64,000 nt of DNA from Escherichia phage MN03. Shown piece by piece: positions 25,901 through 37,996 of the stretch; positions within the stretch are counted from its first letter, which is position 1, and each line of letters opens with the position of its first letter. Under the pieces are notes generated by a model. That model was not told the DNA's origin. It searched no databases and was given only the letters and a program-made list of their open reading frames with translations. Both the position numbers and the translations under genes were made by a program. The DNA lies in sequence record NC_070990.1. One strand, written 5' to 3'.

Positions 25901-25970
25901 TAATGATGTTAATAGTAATGCTGCTATCAATGGTTTAACGATAGAGTTTGCTGTTGGCGGGCGGAGATAA
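22953..25970 (+). CDS. Large structural protein with three tandem Ig-like (Big_2-type) domains (1005 aa)
   Basis: Three ~80-aa segments with V..S..TV/ITA...T...A.VTV pattern around residues 110-370; AAGGAGG SD. Confidence 0.6.
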   Translation: MALYPIKSLGAVGVIADQAPTDLAPNAFTNAINARFVEQRVFKTGGNAPLSYVDEDKDLTPLSFVSMPFDYYSAGNSFLVVGTDKKLYKLTDESLTDISRKVATVTKKASASIKIYPVVSQIVPKESTISMNFNQTKNLEVSLLPADANNTDLIWEVSNSSYGSIAVDPSDSKLATLTSFEKEGNLVVTISTANESVVAQIAVNIIDGDSGIFLSQDTVTIRKGGTTTLTAVTGKTPVTWSSNNASIVSVTPNANSLTAVITANGEGNVTITADNGTKIASCEVVSIPQIDSISLSQSDVTVSRGSQYILTATLSPANAPNQNITWTSSNPNIATVSGTSTQGTINALLAGFTEITATTEEGNRVAVCTVRVDLAGRTMRTSAMAFAAPVSESVETQEEEVVTPPESEETVYFAEPTSGIDTSGMYEGNNFYDYSNVNDIEGFARASLLATPLSSVTLDIVSASLDVGEEIVITATASPEGEYSYQWSVDKTGYVSTTSVTGKSIKLVALRKGEINVTCTVSQMTQKDYDAFDDYPWYHAVISNCAVATTHYETPQVKEFESEYFVDLPGWGEQTVVDNDGNPSVKKFNWKCERVRSFNNRLFALNMREANASGVTTNYPLRLRWSNFANENKAPTLWDDFAYDRVVSSDLASNIVGQTQALENGYAGYIDLADSNGSLIDILPLKDYLFVYTEFETYIGSPTNNTYQPLMFKKLFNDSGILAPECVVEVEGSHFVVTQNDVILHNGATKKSIASNRVKNMLINEVCLVNPLATRVHLHQDKKEVWVLYVGPGEPKESFACTKAAVWNYEFDTWSFRTIPYAQCIGLVDPPVLERGPIWSDFQEITWDDPSIKELVWRKDATNFRQRVTIVGSFLKGFYQVDVGALDYFYDRLNDVVIEKPLEMRLERTGIDFDNVTNEWNQKHINRFRPQTTGSGTYIFEAGGSQFSNEYGHPHTSKTYTIGVDRHVSVRLNHPYLFYNVIDNDVNSNAAINGLTIEFAVGGRR

Positions 25971-25974
25971 CAAC

Positions 25975-26000
25975 AAGGGGCTTCGTGCCCCTTTTATTGT
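25975..26000 (+). terminator. Rho-independent terminator
   Basis: aaggggc-ttcgt-gcccctt followed by ttattgtttt. Confidence 0.7.
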
Positions 26001-26013
26001 TTTGGAGGAACTT

Positions 26014-26982
26014 ATGGGTGCAGGTGGTTTTCGTAAGAATACTGGTCGCAACAACACCACACTCCCGTACAACGTTGGGTTTCTCAATAATGTACAGGAC
26101 ACAGAAACATATAACGTAGCCGTGTATGATGAATTACAAAAAGTTAGCACAGCTACTAACCAAATGTTCCAAGCTATAGATGAAATTCACGAAGAGATTG
26201 ATGTTCGTATTAAAGCTCTTAATGCAATGAATCTACAATTTGATGAGCTTGAGAATAGAATTACTACAGAGATAGAAACAGCTATTGCAGATATCCAAAC
26301 CCAGATGGGGAACCTGTCCACTGAGGACATTTGGGATAATTCTGTTCAACCTCCTGTGAAGCTAGAAAGCACTGTATCTGGTTTTAAGACCAGCATCGAA
26401 GATAACACAACTAAAATTCAGACAGTAGAAGGTATTGTTAACGATCAAGGTCAAGAGATTGCTCTTGTTCAGACAGAACTGCAAAATATCAACGGAAGCC
26501 TTTCTCAGTATATGAAACTCTCTGAGTATGAAGCTACGTGGGGTGTTAACTCTACAGTCAACGGAAGATATGCTGGAGTCAAGTTAACTAACAACGGAAC
26601 AAACAGTCAATTCCAAGTAACAGCTAACAAATTTATTGTTGGTGATGGCAGCTCTGGGAATACCCCCTTCGTATTTGAGGGTGGGCGAGCTAGGATGGAA
26701 TTCGCTGACATAAAGAACGTCAACATCACAACTGCTCAGATTGCCAACGCTAGGATCCAATGGGCACAGATTGATAACGTATCTATCTCCAATGCTCAGA
26801 TTCAGAACTTATCAGCGGATAAAATCACTGCTGGTTCTATGTGGGGTTCTAACTGGAGACTTACTGTTGGTGGTGATTTTGTTATGGGTGGTACAGGTGG
26901 TTCTCAGTTGTGGATGAATGGTAATAGAATAGATTTTTATGATGGGAGTGGAACTCTTCGAATAAGAATAGGGAGTTGGTAA
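26014..26982 (+). CDS. Virion structural protein (~322 aa)
   Basis: ORF track ORF 25948..26982; start moved to ATG at 26014 (GGAGG SD) because the earlier start lies inside the terminator hairpin. Confidence 0.5.
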   Translation: MGAGGFRKNTGRNNTTLPYNVGFLNNVQDTETYNVAVYDELQKVSTATNQMFQAIDEIHEEIDVRIKALNAMNLQFDELENRITTEIETAIADIQTQMGNLSTEDIWDNSVQPPVKLESTVSGFKTSIEDNTTKIQTVEGIVNDQGQEIALVQTELQNINGSLSQYMKLSEYEATWGVNSTVNGRYAGVKLTNNGTNSQFQVTANKFIVGDGSSGNTPFVFEGGRARMEFADIKNVNITTAQIANARIQWAQIDNVSISNAQIQNLSADKITAGSMWGSNWRLTVGGDFVMGGTGGSQLWMNGNRIDFYDGSGTLRIRIGSW

Positions 26983-26983
26983 C

Positions 26984-28018
26984 ATGGCATATGGAATATG
27001 GACACGCCCGGTTGGTCCGGGTCCAGCGGCACCTGCTGATATTTACATCGATAGTGGTAGCACATTCCCTCAACTCAGAAATAGAGTCAGTGGGAATTTC
27101 TCTTTTAGTGGAAATACCTGTGACTTGCCTATAAGTGGTTGGGATGGTAGTGGTCAGATAGTTGTAGTTCCAACAGGGTCTGTTGTTTGGGAGAGATACA
27201 TACCTCCTAACGTAACGTCTGATGTGTATTGGATAACGGATATATCTGTTATTAATAACTCAACCTTCAGAGTTACTATGGACTATAATGTAAACGGTTG
27301 GGTATTTGATATGGCTTTTAATGTGTATCAAATATGGCCTAGAGCTAACAGGAATTATGGAATCACATTCTCCAACTCTGCTGACTATTTCTCAATATCC
27401 GATTCTGGGGTTGTTGGTCAATGTATTTGGGCTTGGGAGGGTGACATAAATGGTTCTCTTCAAATACCAGATATTGGTGGTTTTGATATGAGCCGAGCAA
27501 CTGTCTACGCGAATTGGAGTAACGGTGGAGCAGGGCTGCTATACAATCCATCCAATAGGGTTGTTTATGTGTACCAGAACAGGTCTCATGATAATGGTAA
27601 CACAAACCAAACAGGATACATTGGTGGTGTTAGAATTGCCGTCTTCTGTGATGGTTCTGGAGTACCAACCCACAATGGTGGTTTAAATATCTTCTCTCCA
27701 AATGGGTCTCAGTGTGTATTTTCTACATATAGAACCCCTTTTAGTGTTGAGGGATTTATGCCTATGAGTGGCGGTAACACATCTCTGGCCTATCCAATGA
27801 TACCACTATCTTACGGAGCAGGAGCAATAAGAGGCAAGGCTAGTGGTTGGTATTTTCAACACACAAGATCTCACATGATGAATGGCTCTTCTTTCGGTAC
27901 AGGTTTCGGAAGGATGATTTACTCTTGGAGTAGTCAATATGATTTAGGAGGGGGTGGTGCCCTCGGGTTAAGTATTCCAATATTAGATGCTAGAAAGATA
28001 TTCAGGAGTATACAATAA
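26984..28018 (+). CDS. Virion structural protein (344 aa)
   Basis: ORF track; Gly/Ser/Asn-rich. Confidence 0.5.
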   Translation: MAYGIWTRPVGPGPAAPADIYIDSGSTFPQLRNRVSGNFSFSGNTCDLPISGWDGSGQIVVVPTGSVVWERYIPPNVTSDVYWITDISVINNSTFRVTMDYNVNGWVFDMAFNVYQIWPRANRNYGITFSNSADYFSISDSGVVGQCIWAWEGDINGSLQIPDIGGFDMSRATVYANWSNGGAGLLYNPSNRVVYVYQNRSHDNGNTNQTGYIGGVRIAVFCDGSGVPTHNGGLNIFSPNGSQCVFSTYRTPFSVEGFMPMSGGNTSLAYPMIPLSYGAGAIRGKASGWYFQHTRSHMMNGSSFGTGFGRMIYSWSSQYDLGGGGALGLSIPILDARKIFRSIQ

Positions 28019-28027
28019 GGAGATATT

Positions 28028-28810
28028 ATGGCAATCAGAATGGGTATCGAAGAACTAGACCCAATGGTACAGCAAGCTTCAAAGAAGTATGGGATTCCTG
28101 CTGCTTTGATTCATGCTGTCATCCAAAGAGAGTCCAGTGGTCGTCCTACAGTGGCCTCTGGAACTGGTCCTGTAGGTTTAATGCAGATCAGTAAAGGGTT
28201 GGCTAAAGATTACGGTTACAAACTAGAAGATAGACTTGACCCAGCAAAGAATATTGATATGGGCGCTCGTTACATAAGAGATAACTTAAAAGCTTTTAAT
28301 GGTGATGTTAAGAAAGCAATGGTTGGTTATTCAGAAGGTATCGGTGGAGCTAAGCAAATGTTCGCTGGTAAAAAGGGGTTTACTCCACAAGCTCTTGACT
28401 CCATGAACAATAAACACTTTCTTCCTTTCTATGGTGATGCAGCTTCTCAGATTGCTAACCCTGTTGGAGCTTTGCAAGCTGTTCAACCAGTCAATCAGTT
28501 TAGTCCTGACTTGTTAGATAGAGAGAAGGCCGCACAAGCTCCAACTCAGGCAGAGATTGCTGCTTCTAAGACAGGTGCTTTAGGCGGAAATCCAGTAGAG
28601 TTTTACTCTGATGAAGTGCAGGAAGGCGAAAATCAGAAACCTCAACAGAACTTTGGTAATGCAGTATTAGGGGTAGCTGCTATGCTTGCTGGTAAACCTC
28701 CCACTTCTCAAACAGTTCAGAGGGCAAGTGCACCACATGCAGCAGGTTCTCAGTACAGTCCACAAACACAAGCAGTGCTCAGACGTCTGGCTAGCATTGG
28801 TGTAAAGTAA
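28028..28810 (+). CDS. Virion-associated lytic transglycosylase (SLT domain) protein (260 aa)
   Basis: IQRESSG ... GLMQ ... GYSEG matches the SLT catalytic-Glu region; AAGGAG SD. Confidence 0.7.
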   Translation: MAIRMGIEELDPMVQQASKKYGIPAALIHAVIQRESSGRPTVASGTGPVGLMQISKGLAKDYGYKLEDRLDPAKNIDMGARYIRDNLKAFNGDVKKAMVGYSEGIGGAKQMFAGKKGFTPQALDSMNNKHFLPFYGDAASQIANPVGALQAVQPVNQFSPDLLDREKAAQAPTQAEIAASKTGALGGNPVEFYSDEVQEGENQKPQQNFGNAVLGVAAMLAGKPPTSQTVQRASAPHAAGSQYSPQTQAVLRRLASIGVK

Positions 28811-28829
28811 TAATCTTTAAGGAGGACTT

Positions 28830-29882
28830 ATGTCTTTATTTGGAAAATCAGCTTCTAGCAAAACCACAGTGGCCCCTTCCTCTCAGGTTGATGCCCTGCT
28901 GAAGCAGATTGTTGCTAATGCTCAGAATATGCAGAACAACGATCCGGGATTCATCTCCCAACAACTGGCTGGGTTTAATGGCAACCAACAGGGTGCTCTG
29001 AACAACTTAGCAGCTTCTACTACTCAGAAGCAATTGGCTGATATGTACACGCCTCGTACACAGCAAGGGTTGGACCAATTAAACTCTCTTGCACAGCAGT
29101 ATCAGAATATTGTCAATGGTGGTGGTCTAACTGCTGATGGTGTTAATAACTTTAGTAAAGGATTGAATAACTCAGCTCTTGCTCAAGCGACTAGTAAGGC
29201 AGCTTCCAATGTATCCCTCGGAAATGGTTCTGATTCAGGCTCTCTCCGTAGAGCTGCTGCTCAAGGTGCTGCTCTGAACAGTGCTAATACAAACTTAGCT
29301 CGTACTATCAGTGGCAAGAATATGGGAATCAGTGCTCTTCAACAAGACCAAAACTTCCAGAGGGGCTTACTTGGTGCTCAGTCAGGATTGGCTGGACAGA
29401 ATCTCAATCTTGGTGCTCAAGGTGTTCAGGCAACTCAACAAGCTATCCAGAATCAACTCATGGCTGGTAATCTACAACAGCAACAAGCCCAAGCTCAAGC
29501 TGATATTAATTGGCAGAACGCTATTGGCTCTCAACAGTATGGGTGGAATCAGCTTAACAACCAACTTAATGTATTAAATAGTGTAAGCCCAATGGCTGGG
29601 TACACGATTAAGAATGCTGCTCCGGGGGTTAATACTGGACAACAGCTCCTAGGTGCTGGTATCACTGGATTAGGTATTGCAGGTCGTATGGGTGCTTTCT
29701 CTCCTAATCAACAGACTCAGAATGCTTGGAGTTCCTATAACAACTCAGGTGGGCAATCTGGAATGGCTGGTCCTATGATTGGTGGTTCTAATCTTTCTCA
29801 ACAGAAAGGTCAGTCTAACTGGTTATCCACAGCAGGTAGTAATATCTTAGGTGGTGTCTTAGGGGCATTTGGAGCAAACTAA
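28830..29882 (+). CDS. Gln/Asn/Gly-rich internal virion protein (350 aa)
   Basis: Low-complexity Q/N/G composition; paralogous to the next gene; AAGGAGG SD. Confidence 0.5.
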   Translation: MSLFGKSASSKTTVAPSSQVDALLKQIVANAQNMQNNDPGFISQQLAGFNGNQQGALNNLAASTTQKQLADMYTPRTQQGLDQLNSLAQQYQNIVNGGGLTADGVNNFSKGLNNSALAQATSKAASNVSLGNGSDSGSLRRAAAQGAALNSANTNLARTISGKNMGISALQQDQNFQRGLLGAQSGLAGQNLNLGAQGVQATQQAIQNQLMAGNLQQQQAQAQADINWQNAIGSQQYGWNQLNNQLNVLNSVSPMAGYTIKNAAPGVNTGQQLLGAGITGLGIAGRMGAFSPNQQTQNAWSSYNNSGGQSGMAGPMIGGSNLSQQKGQSNWLSTAGSNILGGVLGAFGAN

Positions 29883-29894
29883 AGGAGATTTGAT

Positions 29895-30863
29895 ATGGGA
29901 CTTTTCGGAGGCGGGGGTAGTAAAACTACTTCCCAAATGATTCGCCCTGAATACATTCAACAGTATATTGACCAGCTTAACCAACAGATTGGTAATACTA
30001 GTTCAGGGGATTATGTTTATCGTGACAATGTAGGGTTTAATAACAATCAGACAGAGGCACTTAACAACCTAGCACAATCTGGCGCTCTAGGTACTCTCTC
30101 ACAGCAGTATATGGATGCAGCAGGTCAAGGCTTGGGTTATCTAGATAATGCCTATAAAGGTTATCAGAGCCTCTCTGGACAAGGTGGGATTACTGGAGAG
30201 CAGATTGGTGCTCTCGCTGGTCAACTGTATGATGATGACGCTGTGCAAGCAGCCATTACAGCTAATAATGAACAGGTTCAACAGAACTTGGCACGTAATG
30301 CTCTTCCTCAGTTAGCTCAACAGTTTGCTGGTCAACAAGGTTCAGGTGCTCGTATGGCTAAATCTTTTGCCCAAGGTGATGCTCTGAATCAGATGCAAGG
30401 GCAAGCAACAGATATTACCAACAGTGCCTATAACTCAGCTATCAGCCAAGCTGAAAGCATCCTCTCTGGTAATAGACAGAATCAGGCAGCTGCTCTCTCT
30501 GGTCTTTCTAATATTGGTTCTAACCTTTCTAACCTAGGTCAGCAGGGTGCTAATTTGTCTCAACAGCAAATAATGAATCAATGGAATGCAGGGTTGCAGC
30601 AACAACAGCAACAACAGAATGAATATGATAATGCCTACCAGAATGCTCAGAACGCAGCTAATTGGGGATGGCAAGATATCAATAACCAACTCGGTGCAGC
30701 AGGTGTACTTAACGGTGCTCTCGGACAAACTACAACTACTAAAACATCTGGTGGCAAAGGTGGTTTCCTTGGTGGAGCTATGAGTGGTGCAGCAGCTGGC
30801 TCTTCCTTTGGACCTTGGGGTGCATTAGCTGGGGGTGTAATCGGTGGGTTGGCTAGTACTTAA
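29895..30863 (+). CDS. Gln/Asn/Gly-rich internal virion protein, paralogue of 28830..29882 (322 aa)
   Basis: Shared motifs (NNQ..ALNNLA, Q-rich centre, Gly-rich hydrophobic C-terminus). Confidence 0.5.
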   Translation: MGLFGGGGSKTTSQMIRPEYIQQYIDQLNQQIGNTSSGDYVYRDNVGFNNNQTEALNNLAQSGALGTLSQQYMDAAGQGLGYLDNAYKGYQSLSGQGGITGEQIGALAGQLYDDDAVQAAITANNEQVQQNLARNALPQLAQQFAGQQGSGARMAKSFAQGDALNQMQGQATDITNSAYNSAISQAESILSGNRQNQAAALSGLSNIGSNLSNLGQQGANLSQQQIMNQWNAGLQQQQQQQNEYDNAYQNAQNAANWGWQDINNQLGAAGVLNGALGQTTTTKTSGGKGGFLGGAMSGAAAGSSFGPWGALAGGVIGGLAST

Positions 30864-30876
30864 TTAGGAGATAAAT

Positions 30877-32526
30877 ATGCAACAGACAACTTACGCTCAG
30901 GTCAGAAGTCGTGACCCGAGAAATACTTTCTATGGTGTTAATCCGGGAGCGGCTTCGGCCTCTCCTTATATGGCTAGACCAACTCAGACAGCAGATATTT
31001 CTATGTATCAACGTCCTGCTATACCTGCTGGGCTTTCCTCTCTTGTAGGTCAAACTTCAGTAGATTATCAGAATATGTTGAATCCTGTTCAGAGTAATGG
31101 TCTTCCTTCTGATATCCCAAATGATGTACAACCTCAAGCACAACAGGCTGTAACTCTTCCTGAGTTTGAGAATCAAGAAACCATGCAAGCTGCTGGACTT
31201 TCCCCTTCTTCTATTCCTCCAGAATCAGAACCTCTTCCGGTAACACCTCCTACTAAACCGTTAGAAGCTGGTCCTATGGAGTTTACTCCTTCTCAGGTGG
31301 AACAGGCACAAGGTGTGATTAATACTCTTGCTCAAGGACAAGACGCTGGTGATGGAATGACTGCTGCTACTCGTGCTAAAGATCAGGAACGTGTTAACAA
31401 CGATATCTTGCAAGTTGCGAAAGCTAAAGACCCTTCGGAAGCTTGGAACAAACTACAGAAAGAACCATTCTATCAGAACTCTAGTTTCTACACAGGTTTG
31501 ATGGGTGTAGGTCTTTCCATTATGTCAGGTAAGTCTCCTATTGAAGCTTTCCAGATTGGTCAGGGAATGGCTAATCAAGATGAGACTAAGAAGCAACTGG
31601 AAGCTAACCGTGATGCTCTGATTGAACAAGGCTTCTCTCAAGACTCGATTGCAGCTGCTATTGCTAACGGAGACCCATCTCTACTGAAGATGAGATCTGT
31701 AGACCCTGCTCAGAAAGAAGCGTTGTATGCTGCTCGTGAAGAACGACAAAATGCTGAATGGGATAGACGTCAACAGATTCAAGAGCAAACTATGCGTGAG
31801 CGTGCTGATGAAACTCGTCGTGCCGCTGAAGAAAGAGCTAACATGAACTTTGAACGTCAGAAAGAGTTGATTGGTTATCGTGATAAGGTTAAGGCTGAAC
31901 GTGCTGAACAAGCTGCTCAGAGTTTTAACTTTAACCCGAAAGAAGTTCGTCTTGCTCAGAATACAGCTGAAGGTACGGTTGCTAAGCAGTGGGCAGAGAA
32001 AGGTGGCCTGTTTAACCAGTCTAACAAAGACTTGGATTTGGCTGATAAGGCTGTTAAGGATAAAGACTATCAGACAGCTCGTTCTGCTTACATGCAGGCT
32101 ATCATGAACTCCGCAAGGGCTGAAATCGGTGCTACTCGTTCTCTTACCGAAGAAGACTTGGGGCACTTTGCAGAAGACCCATCAATCTTCGTTCGTGTTG
32201 GCAACAAGTTTGCACTGAAGTCTGGATGGCGTCCTACTGATTCTGCTCTTGCTTATGCTCGTAAGCAAGCTAACGTTGGTCACACCTCTGCAATGAAAGG
32301 TGTTGCTGATGCTAAGAGAGCTACGATTGAAGCTTACATCGGTTCTGGTATGGATAAGAAGAGAGCTACTGCATTGGTTAACCGTGCAATCCCTTCTGGT
32401 GGTTTCTATGACCCTCTAGGTGTTTTCTCTGAACAAGCAGAAGAAGCAGTTGGTGGTGCAGCAACCAATCCTAAGCTTAATGGTGCTTTATCAGCTGTCG
32501 AAGACACTAGCTGGTTTACTCAATAA
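30877..32526 (+). CDS. Internal virion protein (549 aa)
   Basis: ORF track; AGGAG SD; position among internal/ejection proteins. Confidence 0.5.
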   Translation: MQQTTYAQVRSRDPRNTFYGVNPGAASASPYMARPTQTADISMYQRPAIPAGLSSLVGQTSVDYQNMLNPVQSNGLPSDIPNDVQPQAQQAVTLPEFENQETMQAAGLSPSSIPPESEPLPVTPPTKPLEAGPMEFTPSQVEQAQGVINTLAQGQDAGDGMTAATRAKDQERVNNDILQVAKAKDPSEAWNKLQKEPFYQNSSFYTGLMGVGLSIMSGKSPIEAFQIGQGMANQDETKKQLEANRDALIEQGFSQDSIAAAIANGDPSLLKMRSVDPAQKEALYAAREERQNAEWDRRQQIQEQTMRERADETRRAAEERANMNFERQKELIGYRDKVKAERAEQAAQSFNFNPKEVRLAQNTAEGTVAKQWAEKGGLFNQSNKDLDLADKAVKDKDYQTARSAYMQAIMNSARAEIGATRSLTEEDLGHFAEDPSIFVRVGNKFALKSGWRPTDSALAYARKQANVGHTSAMKGVADAKRATIEAYIGSGMDKKRATALVNRAIPSGGFYDPLGVFSEQAEEAVGGAATNPKLNGALSAVEDTSWFTQ

Positions 32527-32546: not shown

Positions 32547-32555
32547 TAATGTATA
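32547..32555 (+). promoter_or_regulatory. Phage-type promoter element TAATGTATA, 39 nt upstream of the 32594 start codon
   Basis: Motif tcTATAATGTATATAGG; the ORF-track start at 32549 lies inside this motif. Confidence 0.45.
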
Positions 32556-32593
32556 TAGGGGGTAGGACATTTTTATTTATAAAAGGAGACGTT

Positions 32594-35500
32594 ATGGCTA
32601 ACATTAAACCGTGGGAAGAAGCTTCCAAAGCTCCTGCGTATCTGAATGCCTCTCCGGAGCAACAAGCTCAAATGAGAGAACAATATAAGGCAGCAGGTGG
32701 CTCTATTCCTGAGGAACAACCAGTAGCACAACCACAACAAGAAGAACGTGGTGCTATAGGTGAGTTTGCTCAAGGTGTGTCAAATGCTCTTCAATCTGGT
32801 GGTGCAAATATTGCAGCTAGTGCTGCTAAAGGTATTGGTGGTTTAGTTGAGATTGGTGAGAATCTAGCTGGAGCACAAACTAGTTATGGTAAGCGTATCC
32901 AAGAGAACTCTCAGAACCTTCTGAAAGAACGTATGGATAAGATTGAGGATGGGATTGGTAAAACTGTCGGTCAGTATGCTGGCGTTGCTGGTGATATCGG
33001 TTTGACAGTTGCTAACCCATTGGCTGCTGCTGCTATCATCGCAGGTCGTGAGACAGGTCGTGCATATGCAGACCAAACCCCTGAAGAGGGAGAGGATAAG
33101 TCTATTCTAGATGCAGCCTTAGTTGGTGGTGCTAACTATGCAGCTCAGAGAATCCTTCCGGGTGCTGTTGGTACAGCTGAGTCCACACTTGGACGTATTG
33201 GTCAGAACGTTGCTAGTAACGCAGTGGCTGGTGCTAAAGGTGGTGCTCTTGTGGGTGCTGCTGAAGTTCAGAACAAGTATGGCGACGACAACGATCTAGC
33301 TAAGACATTGGAAGGTGTTATCGAAGAAGGGGCTATGGGTGCTGCATTTGGTGGCGCAGTTGGTGGGGTTCATGGTTTGATTAGCCGTCCAGATTCTGCT
33401 GTCTTCAAGAACACTCCAGAGTATGCGAAGACTGATATTGCTGCTGATGATGAACTGATTCGTAGTGCTAAGAATATTGATGAACTGAAAGAAGCTTATT
33501 CTAAAGCTGAAACTGCTAATGCTGCTTCTGCTCTGAACCTTCTGGATGAGAATGGATTCCGTATTACAGATGCTGTTGCTGTAGACTTCCCTGCTGCTCA
33601 GCGTATTCTTAATACTGACCAAGCTCGTGCTGAGAAAGCTGCTTCCGTTCAGAAAGAACATTCCAACATTCCGGGCCTCAACCCTTTAGCTTCTCCTGCT
33701 AAGACTCGTGGTAAAGCATTCGCTGACAACGAGCACAACCAGAAGCAGGCTGTTGCTATGAAGGATGCAATGGCTGATTACACCAAAGACAATACGAAAG
33801 CTCTTACAGATGTTCTAGATAACCTAGACCGTGAATTAACTTCTCTCCGAGCTTCTGGTGATTTTACTGGTAGTCCGATTGATATTAAGAACCGTACACA
33901 AGCCGACCGTGATTTCATTGATGCTTACAAGACTTTCTACAATGAAGCAAATCGATTCAAAGCTCGTGATGGTGAAGACTTTAATAACTTTGTAGAGAAA
34001 GCTGCTGAACTACAGAAGATGGCTGATAATGTTTCTCCAGAGATGAAGAAAGCTATCGGTGGGTTGAAGAAACTGAAAGGTATGCCTGAAGGTTTTAATC
34101 CTATCCAAGATGCTTACACTCTGAACAATACAGCTAAGTTCATGAGCAATCAAGATCGTGGTTGGACTTCCCTGACTGATGATGGATTCCGTGAGACTTC
34201 TTCACCTAGTCTGGTAATGAACACTCTCGGTGCTGCTAAGTATGCTCTGAATCGCTTCTCTTCTCAGCGTGCTCGCTCTCAACGTGTTAAGCAACAAGAA
34301 TCTAACAGTGAAGCTATCCGCTCTCTGGCTCGTGGTGATTTGGAAGTTGCTCGTGCTAAATCTACTGCTGATGAAGCTCGTGCTAAGATGGAAGAAGAAC
34401 CAGTTGTTGATGACATTAAATTTAAGACGCAAAATGACGTGGAAACCGAACCGGTTCTGGAGCCTTCTTCTAGTACTGTGACGGAAGAAAATCTTCCTTC
34501 TTCTACTCCTCAAGAAACCCCTCTCACAGCTCGTGATTTAGTTGCGCAAAGACGCGCTATCCGTCAGGCTGAACAGCGTCGCGCTGAAGAAGAGGCGGCG
34601 GCGGCTCAAGAAGCTCCGGTCGAACAAGCTCCACAGGCTGAACCTCTCCCTGCTCGTAACCCTCTAGAGGAGCGTCGTGCAATGGAACAGCAACGTGCTC
34701 AAGAAGAGGCCGCACAGGCTCCAGAACCAACCGTAGAGGAACCAACAGTCAAAGCTGAGCCATTACCTGCTCGTGCTCCTAAAGCTCCTAAGGAAGCTGT
34801 ACAGGACGTTAAACCGGCAAGTGGTGTAGAACGTTTAGCTGCTATGTCTAGTGCTGCTCGTCAGGCTACTAAAGATCGTGCAGAACGCTTTGCTCGTTCT
34901 CTGTACTCTAAGGCTGCTAAAGCTAAAGCTACTGCTGAAAACTTCTTGGCTTATAAAGGCGATCCTAAGGAACTGATGCGTCGTATTCGTCAGGAAGACA
35001 ATGCTATCAACACTGAACGTCATGAAGAAATGGCTCGTAACCAGCTGGCTTCTCAGCAAGGTATTGCTACTGCTAAGAACAACACTGTACGAACTAATTT
35101 TGCTGAATGGGTTAAGGAACGTGGTCTGCCAGAAGACATTGCTACTAAGGCATTACGTGCTGAAGAGAAAGGTTTAGGTGGGAACGTAACTAACTTGGAT
35201 AGTCTGAAACGTCGTGCTGAAAGGTTGTATCAGAAGCAGCGTGAGGATGAGTTTGATAGACTGTATCAACAAGCTCTAGAAGAGAACAAAGCTTTCGATA
35301 AGAAAGATGCTCCTAAACTGGTTGACCAGAAGAAAGAGCTTCAGTCTGAGATTGATGCTTTGATTGATTCAGAACCTTTACGTCCTGCTCAGAAAGATGC
35401 TATGCGTAAGCTGATGAATGACTTTGTAGATGGGAAGTTTAAATCTTCAGAGAAGGCTGGTAGGGAAGAGGCTTTGGAAGTTGGTCAGATGAAGGATATT

Positions 35501-37015
35501 TGGGATGGGTTTATTAACACCTACAACAGAGAAGTGAATGCCTTCAACAAAGCTAACAAGAACTCTCAGTACGAAGCTGCTGCTAAGCACTTACAGGCTC
35601 GTGAAGAACGTCTTGCTACCCTCAGGAAAAAGGCTCAGGCTCGTTCAGATGCTAAGGCTGCTGTTGAGAATGAACGTAAAACTTTAGAGGCTATTGCAGC
35701 TCAGAAGAGTGAGATTGAGAAGATGATGGAAGGTTTACCTAAACCTGTTCGTGAGGCTCAGGAATCTCGTACATTGAAACAGTTGGCTGCTCACCATGAC
35801 AAGAACTCTCCAGTTCCTCCAGAGAAGTTCCGTAGTTACATTGAACGTATCCACAACGCCGAGTCAGATTACCTTGATCGTCAGCGTCGTTTAACTGATG
35901 CAGAGGAAGATGCTCGTCAGGCCAAGTGGAACAAGATGTACGAGCAAGCGGAAGAGATGAACCGTAAGTTTGATGTGGACAAGAGAGTTAAGCGCAGTGA
36001 AGAGCTTAAAGCGGCCCAAGAGCGTGAGAATGATCTTATGGCAGTACAACGTCAACGTGATGACATTCATCGCCGCCTGATGCGTACTATGGAAGATAAG
36101 GGCATATCTAGAGAGGATGCTGAAGCGTTTGCTGGTTCCTATATGGACAACCGTTATGCACTTCTTGAGAAACCTATGACTCCTACTGAACATCAGAATG
36201 CTCGTTCTCGTATCGAAGCTGATGTTGAGAAGTTTGCTAAGAAGTACGAATCAATGACTCCTATCGAGAAAGAGATTGTTAAGGTTACTGGAGATACTGA
36301 AGGTAAGCTTGATAACTTGGATGCGGATACTAGGAAGGCTATTGAGGAGGCTCAGAAGGTTGACTCTGATATTAAGAAACTGCAAGAGGAAGAGTTGGAG
36401 ATGGAGAAGATTCGTTCTGCTCTGCCTGATGATGAAAGATCTCAAGCAAATTCTGATATCTTGGAAAGCATTAAACAACAGGAAGAGGTCTTTGCTGATA
36501 AAGTAGAGAAAGCTTTCTTGAGTGGGAAGAGCTTGGATGAGTTGGCTAGTGTGGCTGAAGTTTTAGACAGGGTTCATGGTGCAGATAAGGCTGGTAACAA
36601 CCGTCGCTTTGTACGTGCATTGCAGACTGCTGCTGAAAACAAGAAGAAGTATGGTGATAATCCAGTAGCTTGGTTTAGTGCTGATGATTACTCTGCCATT
36701 GCTAAACTTGGTGCTTCTTCCGCAGGTGGTAACAAATCCAGAGCACTGGAGAAGATCTTTGGTTCTACAGCTGAACAGGCTAAGAGTAAGTTGCTTGGTA
36801 GGGATGATGTAGCGAAGATGAGACGTGTGATTGAAGAGAACCCTGATATCAAGATTCCTTCTTACAAGACAACAAATCGTACTGAGTACTTGCAGTTCTT
36901 GGAGAAGTTTAATGACGAAGGGAAGCCTAAGATTAAACGTGGCTCATTGTCAGAGAAGCTTGAACGCAGTAAGCGTCAATCGAGACTCCGTGTAAGAGTT
37001 CGACCTAAGGAGTGA
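32594..37015 (+). CDS. Giant internal virion / ejection protein (~1473 aa), coiled-coil-rich
   Basis: Start moved from 32549 to ATG 32594 (AAAGGAGA SD); size and position typical of podovirus internal core proteins. Confidence 0.6.
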   Translation: MANIKPWEEASKAPAYLNASPEQQAQMREQYKAAGGSIPEEQPVAQPQQEERGAIGEFAQGVSNALQSGGANIAASAAKGIGGLVEIGENLAGAQTSYGKRIQENSQNLLKERMDKIEDGIGKTVGQYAGVAGDIGLTVANPLAAAAIIAGRETGRAYADQTPEEGEDKSILDAALVGGANYAAQRILPGAVGTAESTLGRIGQNVASNAVAGAKGGALVGAAEVQNKYGDDNDLAKTLEGVIEEGAMGAAFGGAVGGVHGLISRPDSAVFKNTPEYAKTDIAADDELIRSAKNIDELKEAYSKAETANAASALNLLDENGFRITDAVAVDFPAAQRILNTDQARAEKAASVQKEHSNIPGLNPLASPAKTRGKAFADNEHNQKQAVAMKDAMADYTKDNTKALTDVLDNLDRELTSLRASGDFTGSPIDIKNRTQADRDFIDAYKTFYNEANRFKARDGEDFNNFVEKAAELQKMADNVSPEMKKAIGGLKKLKGMPEGFNPIQDAYTLNNTAKFMSNQDRGWTSLTDDGFRETSSPSLVMNTLGAAKYALNRFSSQRARSQRVKQQESNSEAIRSLARGDLEVARAKSTADEARAKMEEEPVVDDIKFKTQNDVETEPVLEPSSSTVTEENLPSSTPQETPLTARDLVAQRRAIRQAEQRRAEEEAAAAQEAPVEQAPQAEPLPARNPLEERRAMEQQRAQEEAAQAPEPTVEEPTVKAEPLPARAPKAPKEAVQDVKPASGVERLAAMSSAARQATKDRAERFARSLYSKAAKAKATAENFLAYKGDPKELMRRIRQEDNAINTERHEEMARNQLASQQGIATAKNNTVRTNFAEWVKERGLPEDIATKALRAEEKGLGGNVTNLDSLKRRAERLYQKQREDEFDRLYQQALEENKAFDKKDAPKLVDQKKELQSEIDALIDSEPLRPAQKDAMRKLMNDFVDGKFKSSEKAGREEALEVGQMKDIWDGFINTYNREVNAFNKANKNSQYEAAAKHLQAREERLATLRKKAQARSDAKAAVENERKTLEAIAAQKSEIEKMMEGLPKPVREAQESRTLKQLAAHHDKNSPVPPEKFRSYIERIHNAESDYLDRQRRLTDAEEDARQAKWNKMYEQAEEMNRKFDVDKRVKRSEELKAAQERENDLMAVQRQRDDIHRRLMRTMEDKGISREDAEAFAGSYMDNRYALLEKPMTPTEHQNARSRIEADVEKFAKKYESMTPIEKEIVKVTGDTEGKLDNLDADTRKAIEEAQKVDSDIKKLQEEELEMEKIRSALPDDERSQANSDILESIKQQEEVFADKVEKAFLSGKSLDELASVAEVLDRVHGADKAGNNRRFVRALQTAAENKKKYGDNPVAWFSADDYSAIAKLGASSAGGNKSRALEKIFGSTAEQAKSKLLGRDDVAKMRRVIEENPDIKIPSYKTTNRTEYLQFLEKFNDEGKPKIKRGSLSEKLERSKRQSRLRVRVRPKE

Positions 37016-37374: not shown

Positions 37375-37602
37375 CTAGATTAAATCGTAATACTGAATAA
37401 TGTCAGAGAGTTTGAACTCTCGAATCTCATCTTTCTCTACATCTATCGCTGTCATAATCCAACAAGGTTTGCCACCGTTATGAAAACGGGAGCTAGCAAC
37501 GGAGGTTCGGAGTGGAATAACGGACCGGTCAGCAACCTCGCCTCTCCAATTGCGATAGCGAAAGCGAAGCACTTGTTGCGTAGATTTTTGATCATCACTC
37601 AT
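37375..37602 (-). CDS. Hypothetical protein (~75 aa)
   Basis: ORF track ORF 37375..37737 trimmed to internal ATG at 37602, which overlaps the HNH stop by 8 nt. Confidence 0.4.
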   Translation of the reverse strand: MSDDQKSTQQVLRFRYRNWRGEVADRSVIPLRTSVASSRFHNGGKPCWIMTAIDVEKDEIREFKLSDIIQYYDLI

Positions 37603-37996
37603 TTCCTTTTTTGAATTGTTTTCTTGCATCATTCTCTTCTTTTGTTTTAATCTTATGACAAGGGTCTTTACACAGAACCTGAAAACCTTCTTTCTCACAT
37701 AGAGCACGAGAGATGATTTCATCCCAAGTTGCTTCATGATCTAAGGGAACTATAGGCTCTATGTGGTCAATAGCCATATCCTTTACAGGGTGGTCAGAAC
37801 CACACATGGCACACTTAAAGTGCATTGCCAGTCTTCCTGTCTTTGGATTAATCTTCTGCTCTGTCTTGGCGTCTGCTAGTGCATCGAACATGGGCTTCCA
37901 CTTTCTAGTCAGAGAACGAATCCCTGACTTGATGAAAGAGTTGTAACGAGCTTCAGTCCACATTCCACTACAGCGAGTCTTCTCAGACTTCGCCAT
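37595..37996 (-). CDS. HNH endonuclease (133 aa)
   Basis: CAMCGSDHPVKDMAIDHIEPI ... LCKDPCHKIKT: Cys pairs plus DH and terminal His of the HNH motif. Confidence 0.7.
   Translation of the reverse strand: MAKSEKTRCSGMWTEARYNSFIKSGIRSLTRKWKPMFDALADAKTEQKINPKTGRLAMHFKCAMCGSDHPVKDMAIDHIEPIVPLDHEATWDEIISRALCEKEGFQVLCKDPCHKIKTKEENDARKQFKKGNE

What the first reader, a model, noticed from the sequence alone, without database searches (positions are those of the whole stretch)
28830..30863. Paralogous pair of Gln/Asn/Gly-rich, prion-like-composition virion proteins
Two adjacent genes encode ~330-aa proteins dominated by Q, N, G, A and S, with shared blocks and Gly-rich hydrophobic C-termini. They sit between the SLT-domain protein and the giant internal protein. 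Such composition suggests flexible or self-associating ejected proteins, possibly forming a trans-envelope channel.
Basis: seen in the sequence. Interest (0 to 1): 0.4.

Follow-up and report, generated by a model that had tools for sequence, protein, structure and literature searches.

The report
Duplicated Kuravirus DNA-ejection proteins
These two adjacent genes are the already-described small ejection proteins of phiEco32/SU10-type coliphages, which are carried in the phage head and expelled at infection; the find is ordinary, but their family turns out to be much wider than annotated.

Summary
Window 28830-29882 (350 aa, "A") and 29895-30863 (322 aa, "B") are real adjacent genes. Q, N, G, A and S make up 62-63% of each, and both end in Gly-rich hydrophobic tails. 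They are true paralogs (hhalign E=1.8e-33; both hit phrog_4287).

The window is a Kuravirus. A is phiEco32 gp23 / SU10 gp21 (349/350 and 339/350 identical). B is SU10 gp22 (322/322). Published proteomics shows SU10 gp20-24 in virions and absent from genome-release intermediates. Virion presence and ejection are therefore already established.

"Prion-like" holds only as composition: 34-35 Q/N in the best 80 residues. The low-confidence models are all-helical over the first ~250-275 residues, and the sequences are well conserved.

New here:
- The module defines a superfamily of at least 635 protein clusters.
- It includes Bruynoghevirus LUZ24 gp53, the inferred ortholog of Pa223 gp56, which has been proposed as the outer-membrane channel of the ejectosome.
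- Some relatives carry a self-cleaving Peptidase_S74 chaperone directly after the Gly zipper, or are fused to cell-wall hydrolases.
- The pair is consistently one mostly basic and one acidic copy.

Most likely role: the small membrane-inserting subunits of the trans-envelope DNA channel. Interest is low to moderate.

The parts
28028..28810 (+). SLT lytic transglycosylase, the first gene of the ejection-protein block (= SU10 gp20, phiEco32 gp22)
   Evidence: Pfam SLT E=1.2e-23. 258/260 identical to SU10 gp20. In the SU10 virion and lost on genome release.
28819..28825 (+). Shine-Dalgarno site AAGGAGG of paralog A
   Evidence: Read directly from the sequence, 4 nt upstream of the ATG at 28830.
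28830..29882 (+). Paralog A: 350 aa, 35.8 kDa, pI 9.9 (= phiEco32 gp23, SU10 gp21)
   Evidence: ORF. phrog_4287 'DNA ejection protein' E=1.4e-117. 349/350 identical to phiEco32 gp23 and 339/350 to SU10 gp21. No Pfam, NCBIfam or PDB sequence hit.
29340..29579 (+). Most Q/N-rich 80 residues of A (aa 171-250, 35 Q/N). Lies within the predicted long helix 192-252 and contains the conserved NWQNA...WNQLNNQLNVLN block.
29643..29702 (+). First Gly-rich hydrophobic segment of A (aa 272-291, QLLGAGITGLGIAGRMGAFS). Its first residues align with the start of the Gly zipper of B.
   Evidence: Highest Kyte-Doolittle 19-residue window in A, 1.16. Conserved in the A family. The hhalign A/B alignment ends here.
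29820..29879 (+). Second Gly-rich hydrophobic C-terminal segment of A (aa 331-350, WLSTAGSNILGGVLGAFGAN), reached after a variable N/Q/G/S linker
29882..29888 (+). Shine-Dalgarno site AAGGAGA of paralog B, overlapping the last base of A's stop codon
29895..30863 (+). Paralog B: 322 aa, 33.3 kDa, pI 4.3 (= SU10 gp22, phiEco32 gp24, annotated 'DNA injection/ejection protein')
   Evidence: ORF. phrog_4287 E=3.5e-109. 322/322 identical to SU10 gp22 and 319/322 to phiEco32 gp24.
30477..30716 (+). Most Q/N-rich 80 residues of B (aa 195-274, 34 Q/N, includes QQQQQQQ). Overlaps the predicted long helix 219-275.
30750..30860 (+). Glycine-zipper C-terminus of B (aa 286-322, GGKGGFLGGAMSGAAAGSSFGPWGALAGGVIGGLAST), the best-conserved part of the B family
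   Evidence: Seven overlapping GxxxGxxxG motifs in B, five of them in this tail. Sub-threshold Pfam hits to the Glycine zipper 2TM domain (E=0.008) and YMGG/Omp Gly-zippers. Near-invariant columns. A homolog, P0140, hits Gly-zipper_Omp at E=2e-4.
30877..32526 (+). 549-aa ejection protein (= SU10 gp23), candidate periplasmic-tunnel subunit by position. Carries the motif GLMGVGLSIMSGKSPIEAFQIGQG.
   Evidence: phrog_12130. In the SU10 virion and lost on release. The motif is shared weakly with C-terminal parts of long fusion relatives: core HMM E=4.4e-4, the only significant hit among 287 window ORFs; BLASTP E=5e-4. No detectable similarity to LUZ24 gp51.
32594..37015 (+). Giant ejection protein (= SU10 gp24, phiEco32 gp26), 1473 aa when read from the ATG at 32594
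   Evidence: phrog_14629 aligns from residue 16 of the 1488-aa ORF. AAAGGAGA lies upstream of 32594. SU10 lists 1473 aa.

Best explanation
A and B are the two small DNA-ejection (internal virion) proteins of a Kuravirus.

Shown by published work on identical or near-identical proteins: they are packaged in the head and leave the particle when the genome is released.

Inferred mechanism:
- After the nozzle forms and the tail needle is lost, A and B pass unfolded or extended through the tail channel. Their Cys-free, charge-poor, Q/N/G/A/S-rich composition would suit that passage.
- Their helical N-terminal ~250-275 residues oligomerise into a tube.
- Their C-terminal glycine-zipper segments insert into a host membrane, most likely the outer membrane. 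This makes them the membrane-proximal subunit of the ejectosome, the functional counterpart of T7 gp14 and Pa223 gp56.
- The SLT protein cuts the peptidoglycan. The 549-aa protein builds the periplasmic tunnel. The 1473-aa protein reaches the inner membrane.
- The duplication into a mostly basic copy (A) and a consistently acidic copy (B) suggests that the two co-assemble into one hetero-oligomer.
For: - Identity with SU10 gp21/gp22 and phiEco32 gp23/gp24.
- Virion mass spectrometry and loss on genome release in SU10. The distant single-copy homolog of Proteus phage Privateer is also annotated as MS-verified in virions.
- The gene order SLT, A, B, ~500 aa, >1000 aa is kept in an integrated E. 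coli relative.
- Homology to LUZ24 gp53: phrog_4287 E=2e-10, phmmer links to family members, subfamily hhalign E=2.9e-33 over 312 columns.
- LUZ24 gp53, gp51 and gp50 have the same lengths (313, 505, 1055 aa) and order as Pa223 gp56, gp54 and gp53. Those were proposed to be the outer-membrane channel, periplasmic tunnel and inner-membrane complex, with predicted membrane helices in the Gly-rich tail.
- The Gly-zipper tail is conserved.
- Relatives are fused to the cell-wall hydrolases Hydrolase_2 and SLT.
- A-family median pI is 9.7 (net +5). B-family median pI is 4.4 (net -7), acidic in 32 of 32 members.
Against: - No structure exists. AF2 monomer models have pLDDT of about 41, and fold searches gave nothing usable.
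- There is no detectable sequence similarity to any solved chain, so none to any deposited ejection-protein structure, even with the family profile.
- Hydropathy of the tails (maximum 0.94-1.16 over 19 residues) is below that of classical transmembrane helices. The Pfam Gly-zipper hits for B are below threshold.
- The outer-membrane assignment for Pa223 gp56 is itself a prediction in a preprint.
- SU10 cryo-EM saw no ordered density for these proteins.
- A few A-family members are near-neutral (pI 5.6-8), so charge complementarity is not universal.
Confidence: 0.6

Rival explanations
1. They are ejected but do not form a membrane pore. They instead build or extend the periplasm-spanning tube below the nozzle, or act as a plug or adaptor between the nozzle and the 549-aa tunnel protein. 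On this reading the Gly-rich tails serve subunit packing rather than membrane insertion.
For: Long predicted helices make up most of each protein. Tail hydropathy is sub-transmembrane. [quoted passage not shown] S74 chaperone domains in relatives are typical of fibre-like trimers.
Against: Glycine zippers of this type are characteristic of membrane-embedded or membrane-inserting segments, and relatives hit Gly-zipper_Omp/YMGG. The homologous Pa223 gp56 tail is predicted to be membrane-spanning. A ~500-aa protein is already in the position of the tunnel subunit.
Confidence: 0.2
2. Their main role is inside the head, for example as an internal core, portal-barrel stabiliser or DNA-organising filler. 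On this reading they leave the capsid only passively and have no part in the conduit.
For: P22 ejection proteins stabilise the portal barrel and occupy head volume (summarised). The basic copy A could bind DNA. No ordered density is seen in SU10.
Against: The genes are conserved next to a transglycosylase. Relatives are fused to cell-wall hydrolases. The hydrophobic Gly-zipper tail is conserved, which a purely intra-capsid role does not explain. B is acidic.
Confidence: 0.12
3. The Q/N-rich regions are prion-like domains that drive amyloid or condensate self-assembly of the ejected proteins.
For: There are 34-35 Q/N in the best 80-residue window, above the 30-per-80 criterion of Michelitsch and Weissman (2000), which I recall from memory. 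Charge is low.
Against: The Q/N-rich stretches lie within predicted long alpha-helices. They contain regularly spaced Leu, Ile and Trp and invariant positions across orthologs down to 37-45% identity. Q/N richness is a moderate, family-wide trait, with a median of 20.6% over 135 relatives, not an inserted low-complexity tract.
Confidence: 0.03

Closest known systems
SU10 gp21 and gp22 / phiEco32 gp23 and gp24 (Kuravirus ejection proteins; PHROG 4287 'DNA ejection protein')
   Same: These are essentially the same proteins: 97-100% identical, with the same gene order and lengths. They were detected in virions and lost on genome release.
   Different: Nothing of substance differs. The published work does not describe the paralogy, the composition, the charge asymmetry or the wider family.
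Bruynoghevirus LUZ24 gp53 / Pa223 gp56 (313 aa, proposed outer-membrane channel of the ejectosome; bioRxiv 10.1101/2025.06.11.659172)
   Same: A remote homolog from end to end. It has the same architecture, a helical body followed by TTSSGGGG and a Gly-zipper tail. It holds the same position upstream of a ~500-aa and a >1000-aa virion protein. It is a virion protein by mass spectrometry.
   Different: It is single-copy and less Q/N-rich (16%). No SLT gene lies directly upstream. Its function is likewise only predicted. Orthology of LUZ24 gp53 to Pa223 gp56 is inferred from genus, identical lengths and gene order, not from the Pa223 sequence.
Salmonella phage 7-11 gp20, Cronobacter phage A24 gp089, Proteus phage Privateer gp018 (Grimontviridae 'DNA ejection protein', ~410 aa)
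   Same: Same module (7-11 gp20 against phrog_4287, E=2.3e-136). Same position after the tail genes. Privateer gp018 is annotated as MS-verified in virions.
   Different: They are single-copy. 7-11 gp20 and A24 gp089 carry a C-terminal Peptidase_S74 intramolecular-chaperone domain directly after the Gly-rich segment, with an SDxxxK Ser/Lys spacing. A and B lack this domain. Privateer gp018 was not scanned for it.
T7 gp14 / DEV gp73 / P22 gp7 (small membrane subunits of podophage ejectosomes)
   Same: The proposed role is analogous: a small ejected protein encoded at the head of the ejection-protein block, followed by a tunnel subunit and a large subunit.
   Different: There is no detectable sequence similarity to any solved chain. 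A and B are about twice their size, ~320-350 against ~150 aa. A and B are duplicated, and the transglycosylase is a separate gene rather than part of the large subunit.

Membership tests
Kuravirus ejection proteins (SU10 gp21/gp22; PHROG 4287) | Sequence membership | tested here: met
   phrog_4287 E=1.4e-117 for A and 3.5e-109 for B. 339/350 and 322/322 identical to SU10 gp21 and gp22.
Kuravirus ejection proteins (SU10 gp21/gp22; PHROG 4287) | Position in the late operon, after the tail needle and the SLT gene and before the ~550-aa and ~1470-aa proteins | tested here: met
Kuravirus ejection proteins (SU10 gp21/gp22; PHROG 4287) | Present in purified virions and absent from particles after genome release | not testable with these tools
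   Published for SU10 proteins that are 97-100% identical: PMC4281155 Table 2; PMC9509320 text and Supplementary Table 1.
Outer-membrane channel subunit of a podophage ejectosome (Pa223 gp56 / T7 gp14 type) | Homology to Bruynoghevirus gp53/gp56 | tested here: met
   LUZ24 gp53 against phrog_4287, E=2e-10. phmmer links. hhalign probability 99.9%, E=2.9e-33, 312 columns. The LUZ24-side alignment used representatives that had been recovered with the query profile, so that E-value is partly circular. The single-sequence hits are independent of this.
Outer-membrane channel subunit of a podophage ejectosome (Pa223 gp56 / T7 gp14 type) | Sequence or fold similarity to structurally solved ejectosome membrane subunits (T7 gp14, DEV gp73) | tested here: not met
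   Single sequences and the family profile found no credible PDB chain at E up to 10. Foldseek against PDB gave no hit at E<=0.001, using a low-confidence model.
Outer-membrane channel subunit of a podophage ejectosome (Pa223 gp56 / T7 gp14 type) | Membrane-inserting segment | tested here: inconclusive
   A conserved GxxxG-repeat tail is present. Pfam Gly-zipper hits are sub-threshold for B (E=0.008-0.56) and stronger but still below the gathering score in relatives. Maximum Kyte-Doolittle value is only 0.94-1.16.
Outer-membrane channel subunit of a podophage ejectosome (Pa223 gp56 / T7 gp14 type) | Forms an oligomeric pore in the host outer membrane after ejection | not testable with these tools
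   Only monomer AF2 was available, and confidence was poor.
Prion-like / Q/N-rich amyloid-forming domains | Q/N enrichment of at least 30 Q+N in 80 residues (Michelitsch-Weissman criterion, recalled from memory) | tested here: met
   35 for A (aa 171-250) and 34 for B (aa 195-274).
Prion-like / Q/N-rich amyloid-forming domains | Low-complexity, poorly conserved, non-helical (disordered) character of the Q/N region | tested here: not met
   The region lies within predicted long helices, at low model confidence. It holds invariant Trp, Asn, Leu and Gln positions across orthologs and aligns between the paralogs.
Prion-like / Q/N-rich amyloid-forming domains | Self-propagating amyloid formation | not testable with these tools
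   Needs biochemistry.
Peptidase_S74 (intramolecular chaperone, self-cleaving) matured proteins | A PF13884 domain with an SDxxxK Ser/Lys dyad at the C-terminus | tested here: not met
   No Pfam hit for A or B; both end at the Gly-rich segment. The domain is present in relatives: 19 of 59 longer representatives, P0180 and P0158 (E=2e-9 and 7e-8), and 7-11 gp20 and A24 gp089 (20.5 and 22.2 bits against a cut-off of 22).

The most novel reading that the evidence does not exclude
The Kuravirus pair belongs to a large, previously undelimited superfamily of podophage ejection proteins. The ancestral form would be matured by a C-terminal self-cleaving S74 intramolecular chaperone, which would imply trimer-based assembly of a membrane-inserting glycine-zipper protein. 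That form is often one polyprotein together with the lysin and the tunnel module. In Kuraviruses it would have lost the chaperone and duplicated into a mostly basic/acidic pair that co-assembles into a hetero-oligomeric outer-membrane channel.
Probability: 0.3. Interest if true: 0.5.

Novelty: already known. Interest (0 to 1): 0.3.

Why it matters
How short-tailed phages build a DNA conduit across the Gram-negative envelope is known structurally only for T7-like and N4-like phages. Kuraviruses are therapy candidates with an unusual extendable nozzle, and their five ejection proteins have no structures.

Three results give concrete hypotheses for a system that already has cryo-EM infrastructure (SU10):
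- gp21 and gp22 are paralogs of one module.
- The module links to the Bruynoghevirus outer-membrane-channel candidate.
- Some relatives carry an S74 chaperone or are fused to lysins.

The hypotheses are a hetero-oligomeric assembly, a defined membrane-inserting tail, and a maturation cleavage in relatives. None of this changes the basic picture, which is already published.

Tried and rejected
- **Structure prediction.** AF2 on both family alignments gave pLDDT 41.5 and 41.6. I used only the secondary structure and no tertiary inference.
- **Fold searches.** Foldseek of the B model against PDB gave no hit at E<=0.001 and TM<=0.2; the listed hits are generic long-helix proteins such as colicins and chemoreceptors, and I reject them as meaningless. 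Foldseek against BFVD returned only uncharacterised phage proteins at TM 0.2-0.3. These matches are probably sequence-driven; they are consistent with the sequence superfamily but add no fold.
- **Library scans.** Pfam, NCBIfam and PDB sequence searches of A and B found nothing significant. I reject the FlgB hit (E=0.025) and the two PDB hits (E 0.3-0.6) as compositional noise.
- **Link between the 549-aa gene and the long fusion relatives.** A 119-column HMM with flanks failed (E=1.4). A 42-column core-motif HMM gave E=4.4e-4. I spotted the motif by eye before testing it, so I keep this only as a weak lead.
- **gp549 against LUZ24 gp51.** BLASTP found no similarity (E=0.12). The 'periplasmic tunnel' label for gp549 therefore rests on position and size only.
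- **Savalia et al. 2008 (phiEco32 proteomics).** The paper could not be read.
Full report
**What is there.** The window is a Kuravirus genome (Gordonclarkvirinae). The 3-kb stretch around the finding is 99.8% identical to Escherichia phage vB_EcoP_DE5 and 96.4% to phiEco32. The coordinates in the finding are exactly two ORFs on the + strand: A (28830..29882, 350 aa) and B (29895..30863, 322 aa). Each sits 4-6 nt downstream of a strong Shine-Dalgarno site. A is 349/350 identical to phiEco32 gp23 and 339/350 to SU10 gp21. B is 322/322 identical to SU10 gp22 and 319/322 to phiEco32 gp24. The computed masses of 35.8 and 33.3 kDa match the 35.9 and 33.3 kDa listed for SU10 gp21 and gp22.

**Check of the observation.** Q, N, G, A and S make up 62.9% of A and 61.8% of B. 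Charged residues are only 6.6% and 8.7%, and there is no Cys. Among the 37 ORFs of at least 150 aa in the window, these two are by far the most Q/N-rich: 26.6% and 25.2% against a median of 9.4%. Their best 80-residue windows hold 35 and 34 Q/N, and the next-best ORF holds 19.

The paralogy is real and not a by-product of composition. Four results support this:
- BLASTP with compositional adjustment gives 31% identity over 275 residues, E=2e-12.
- The Smith-Waterman score lies about 13 SD above both global and 25-residue block shuffles.
- Both proteins hit the single family phrog_4287, at E=1e-117 and 1e-109.
- Profiles of the two ortholog families align with probability 99.9%, E=1.8e-33, from residue 1 to the first Gly-rich segment.

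The Gly-rich hydrophobic tails are present. B 286-322 is a run of GxxxG repeats and is the best-conserved part of its family. A has one such segment at 272-291, which aligns with the start of B's tail. It then has a variable N/Q/G/S linker and a second segment at 331-350.

One detail needs correcting. A 549-aa gene (30877-32526) lies between the pair and the giant protein.

**What is already known.** SU10 gp20-24 were detected by mass spectrometry in phage preparations. These are the SLT transglycosylase, gp21, gp22, a ~60-kDa protein and a 163-kDa protein (PMC4281155). Siborova et al. [quoted passage not shown] On that basis the authors call them ejection proteins that are released after the tail needle detaches and probably extend the nozzle into a trans-periplasmic channel. 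They saw no ordered density for them in the head (PMC9509320). RefSeq already annotates phiEco32 gp23 and gp24 as 'DNA ejection protein'. The stated refutation test, absence from virions, has been done and fails.

**'Prion-like'.** The count criterion for Q/N-rich regions is met. Everything else points away from a low-complexity, disordered or amyloid domain. AF2 models built on 28- and 32-sequence alignments are of low confidence (pLDDT about 41), but they are uniformly alpha-helical over residues ~18-252 of A and ~19-275 of B. The Q/N-richest stretches lie largely within the longest helices. Leu is 9-10% of each protein. Those stretches also contain invariant or near-invariant Trp, Asn, Leu and Gln positions in orthologs down to 37-45% identity. 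Q/N richness is a moderate trait of the whole superfamily, with a median of 20.6% over 135 representatives. I treat the composition as a property of a conserved helical module. It may be tuned for passage through the tail channel, but that is inference.

**The wider family (new here).** I searched a merged profile of both paralog families against 1.84 billion cluster representatives. It found 635 proteins at E<=1e-3 and 107 at E<=1e-10, nearly all matching the ~320-residue module end to end. Three architectures occur.

1. Stand-alone proteins of ~300-360 aa, like A and B.
2. The module plus a C-terminal Peptidase_S74 intramolecular-chaperone domain. Of the 59 representatives longer than 365 aa, 19 hit PF13884 at E<=1e-3. 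The same holds for the single-copy 'DNA ejection proteins' of Salmonella phage 7-11 and Cronobacter phage A24, both Grimontviridae. In these, the SDxxxK Ser/Lys motif follows the Gly-rich segment directly. Proteus phage Privateer gp018 is the same kind of single-copy homolog and is annotated as MS-verified in virions, but I did not scan it for S74. From the established behaviour of S74 domains in endosialidases and tail fibres, which self-cleave at that Ser after chaperoning trimer formation (my own knowledge), the mature product would end where A and B end. A and B themselves have no S74 domain.
3. Proteins of 650-1600 aa with the module at the N-terminus. Some have S74, Hydrolase_2 or SLT cell-wall hydrolase domains, and one has a Hint domain. 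Thirteen of these carry a motif AGxxxxAGxSPxxxxNIGxG that also occurs in the window's 549-aa protein. Support for that last link is weak.

Fusion to peptidoglycan hydrolases independently ties the module to envelope penetration.

**Link to a proposed function.** LUZ24 gp53 (313 aa, a 'phage particle protein') is a remote homolog.
- It hits phrog_4287 at E=2e-10.
- It hits family members directly by phmmer, including proteins 43-48% identical to B.
- Its subfamily aligns with the A/B profile at probability 99.9%, E=2.9e-33, over 312 columns. This is partly circular, because the subfamily members came from the profile search.
- It ends in the same TTSSGGGG plus Gly-zipper tail.

LUZ24 gp53, gp51 and gp50 have the same lengths (313, 505 and 1055 aa) and order as Pa223 gp56, gp54 and gp53. 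In a 2025 preprint these are all MS-confirmed virion proteins. The authors assign them as outer-membrane channel (T7 gp14-like), periplasmic tunnel (seen bound around the portal) and inner-membrane complex. They predict membrane helices in the gp56 tail and an AF3 nonameric channel. The window has the same layout: small module (here duplicated), then ~550 aa, then ~1470 aa, with the transglycosylase as a separate upstream gene.

**The duplication.** Both copies occur together across divergent Gordonclarkvirinae. They also occur in an integrated relative inside a 389-kb E. coli chromosome contig. There the upstream 334-aa protein is A-type (hhalign E=7.6e-55) and P0044 is B-type. Grimontviridae and Bruynogheviruses have one copy. 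The two lineages differ consistently in charge. The A family has a median pI of 9.7 and net charge +5, although a few members are near-neutral. The B family has a median pI of 4.4 and net charge -7, and all 32 members are acidic. This suggests subfunctionalisation and possibly a hetero-oligomer. That is inference only.

**Most likely mechanism.**
- Shown by published experiments on near-identical proteins: packaged in the head and expelled at genome release.
- Inferred from homology, synteny and sequence features: the helical body oligomerises, and the glycine-zipper tail inserts into a host membrane, most likely the outer one. This forms the first segment of the conduit that the 549-aa and 1473-aa proteins continue, while the SLT protein opens the peptidoglycan.

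I put 0.6 on this overall: about 0.95 that they are ejection proteins, and about 0.4 that they are specifically the outer-membrane element. Rivals are a periplasmic tube or adaptor role (0.2), a mainly intra-capsid role (0.12) and amyloid-type assembly (0.03).

**Verdict.** The extra findings are useful leads rather than surprises: the paralogy statistics, the charge asymmetry, the delimitation of the superfamily, the homology to the Bruynoghevirus channel candidate, and the S74 and lysin fusions in relatives. Interest is 0.3.

Noticed in passing
Locus L003 (E. coli GCA_023211535.1 contig DAHCAP010000002.1, 204317-225285); also P0043 in a 317-kb Enterobacter cloacae contig: An element inside a 389-kb chromosomal contig encodes an SU10-type major capsid protein (PF17236), a terminase, an SU10-type portal (PF23899), an SLT protein, an A-type (334 aa) and a B-type (322 aa) ejection protein, and then 498-aa and 1113-aa proteins. 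It looks like an integrated or temperate relative of the Kuravirus structural module, although Kuraviruses are regarded as strictly lytic.
   Followed up: partly
L006:5986-7221 (Salmonella phage 7-11 gp20), L005:5974-7203 (Cronobacter phage A24 gp089), and proteins P0120, P0158, P0180: Relatives of the ejection module carry a Peptidase_S74 intramolecular-chaperone domain directly after the glycine-zipper segment, with SDxxxK spacing. This predicts self-cleavage that would leave a mature protein ending where the Kuravirus proteins end. None of the papers I read mentions it.
   Followed up: partly
Proteins P0180, P0158, P0160, P0176, P0198, P0202, P0214, P0222, P0228, P0236, P0237, P0240, P0242; window 30877-32526 (aa ~210-233): Long relatives (800-1300 aa) fuse the ejection module to cell-wall hydrolase domains and to a region with the motif AGxxxxAGxSPxxxxNIGxG. 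The same motif occurs in the window's 549-aa ejection protein. This hints that the separate Kuravirus genes correspond to one polyprotein-like gene elsewhere. The statistical support is weak (E about 4e-4).
   Followed up: partly
window 32549-32594: The mechanical ORF for the giant protein starts at 32549 (1488 aa). The real start is probably the ATG at 32594 (1473 aa). It is preceded by AAAGGAGA, the PHROG alignment begins at residue 16, and SU10 and phiEco32 annotate 1473 aa.
   Followed up: yes
window 26984-28018: The DUF6453 protein (344 aa, = SU10 gp19, annotated 'membrane protein') lies between the tail-needle gene and the SLT ejection gene. SU10 Supplementary Table 1 marks gp19 'no' in both columns where gp16-18 and gp20-24 are marked 'yes'; I did not see the column headers but read this as not detected in virions. 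Its role in the late operon is unexplained.
   Followed up: no
window 25948-26982: The listed ORF starts at a TTG (344 aa). phiEco32 gp20 and SU10 gp18 (the tail needle, Phage_Tail_Tip domain) are annotated as 322 aa, so the true start is probably the internal ATG (MGAGGFRKN...).
   Followed up: no
window 37375-37996, minus strand: Two overlapping minus-strand ORFs (120 and 133 aa) lie just downstream of the ejection-protein block. phiEco32 has two adjacent HNH endonuclease genes at the corresponding place. I did not examine them.
   Followed up: no
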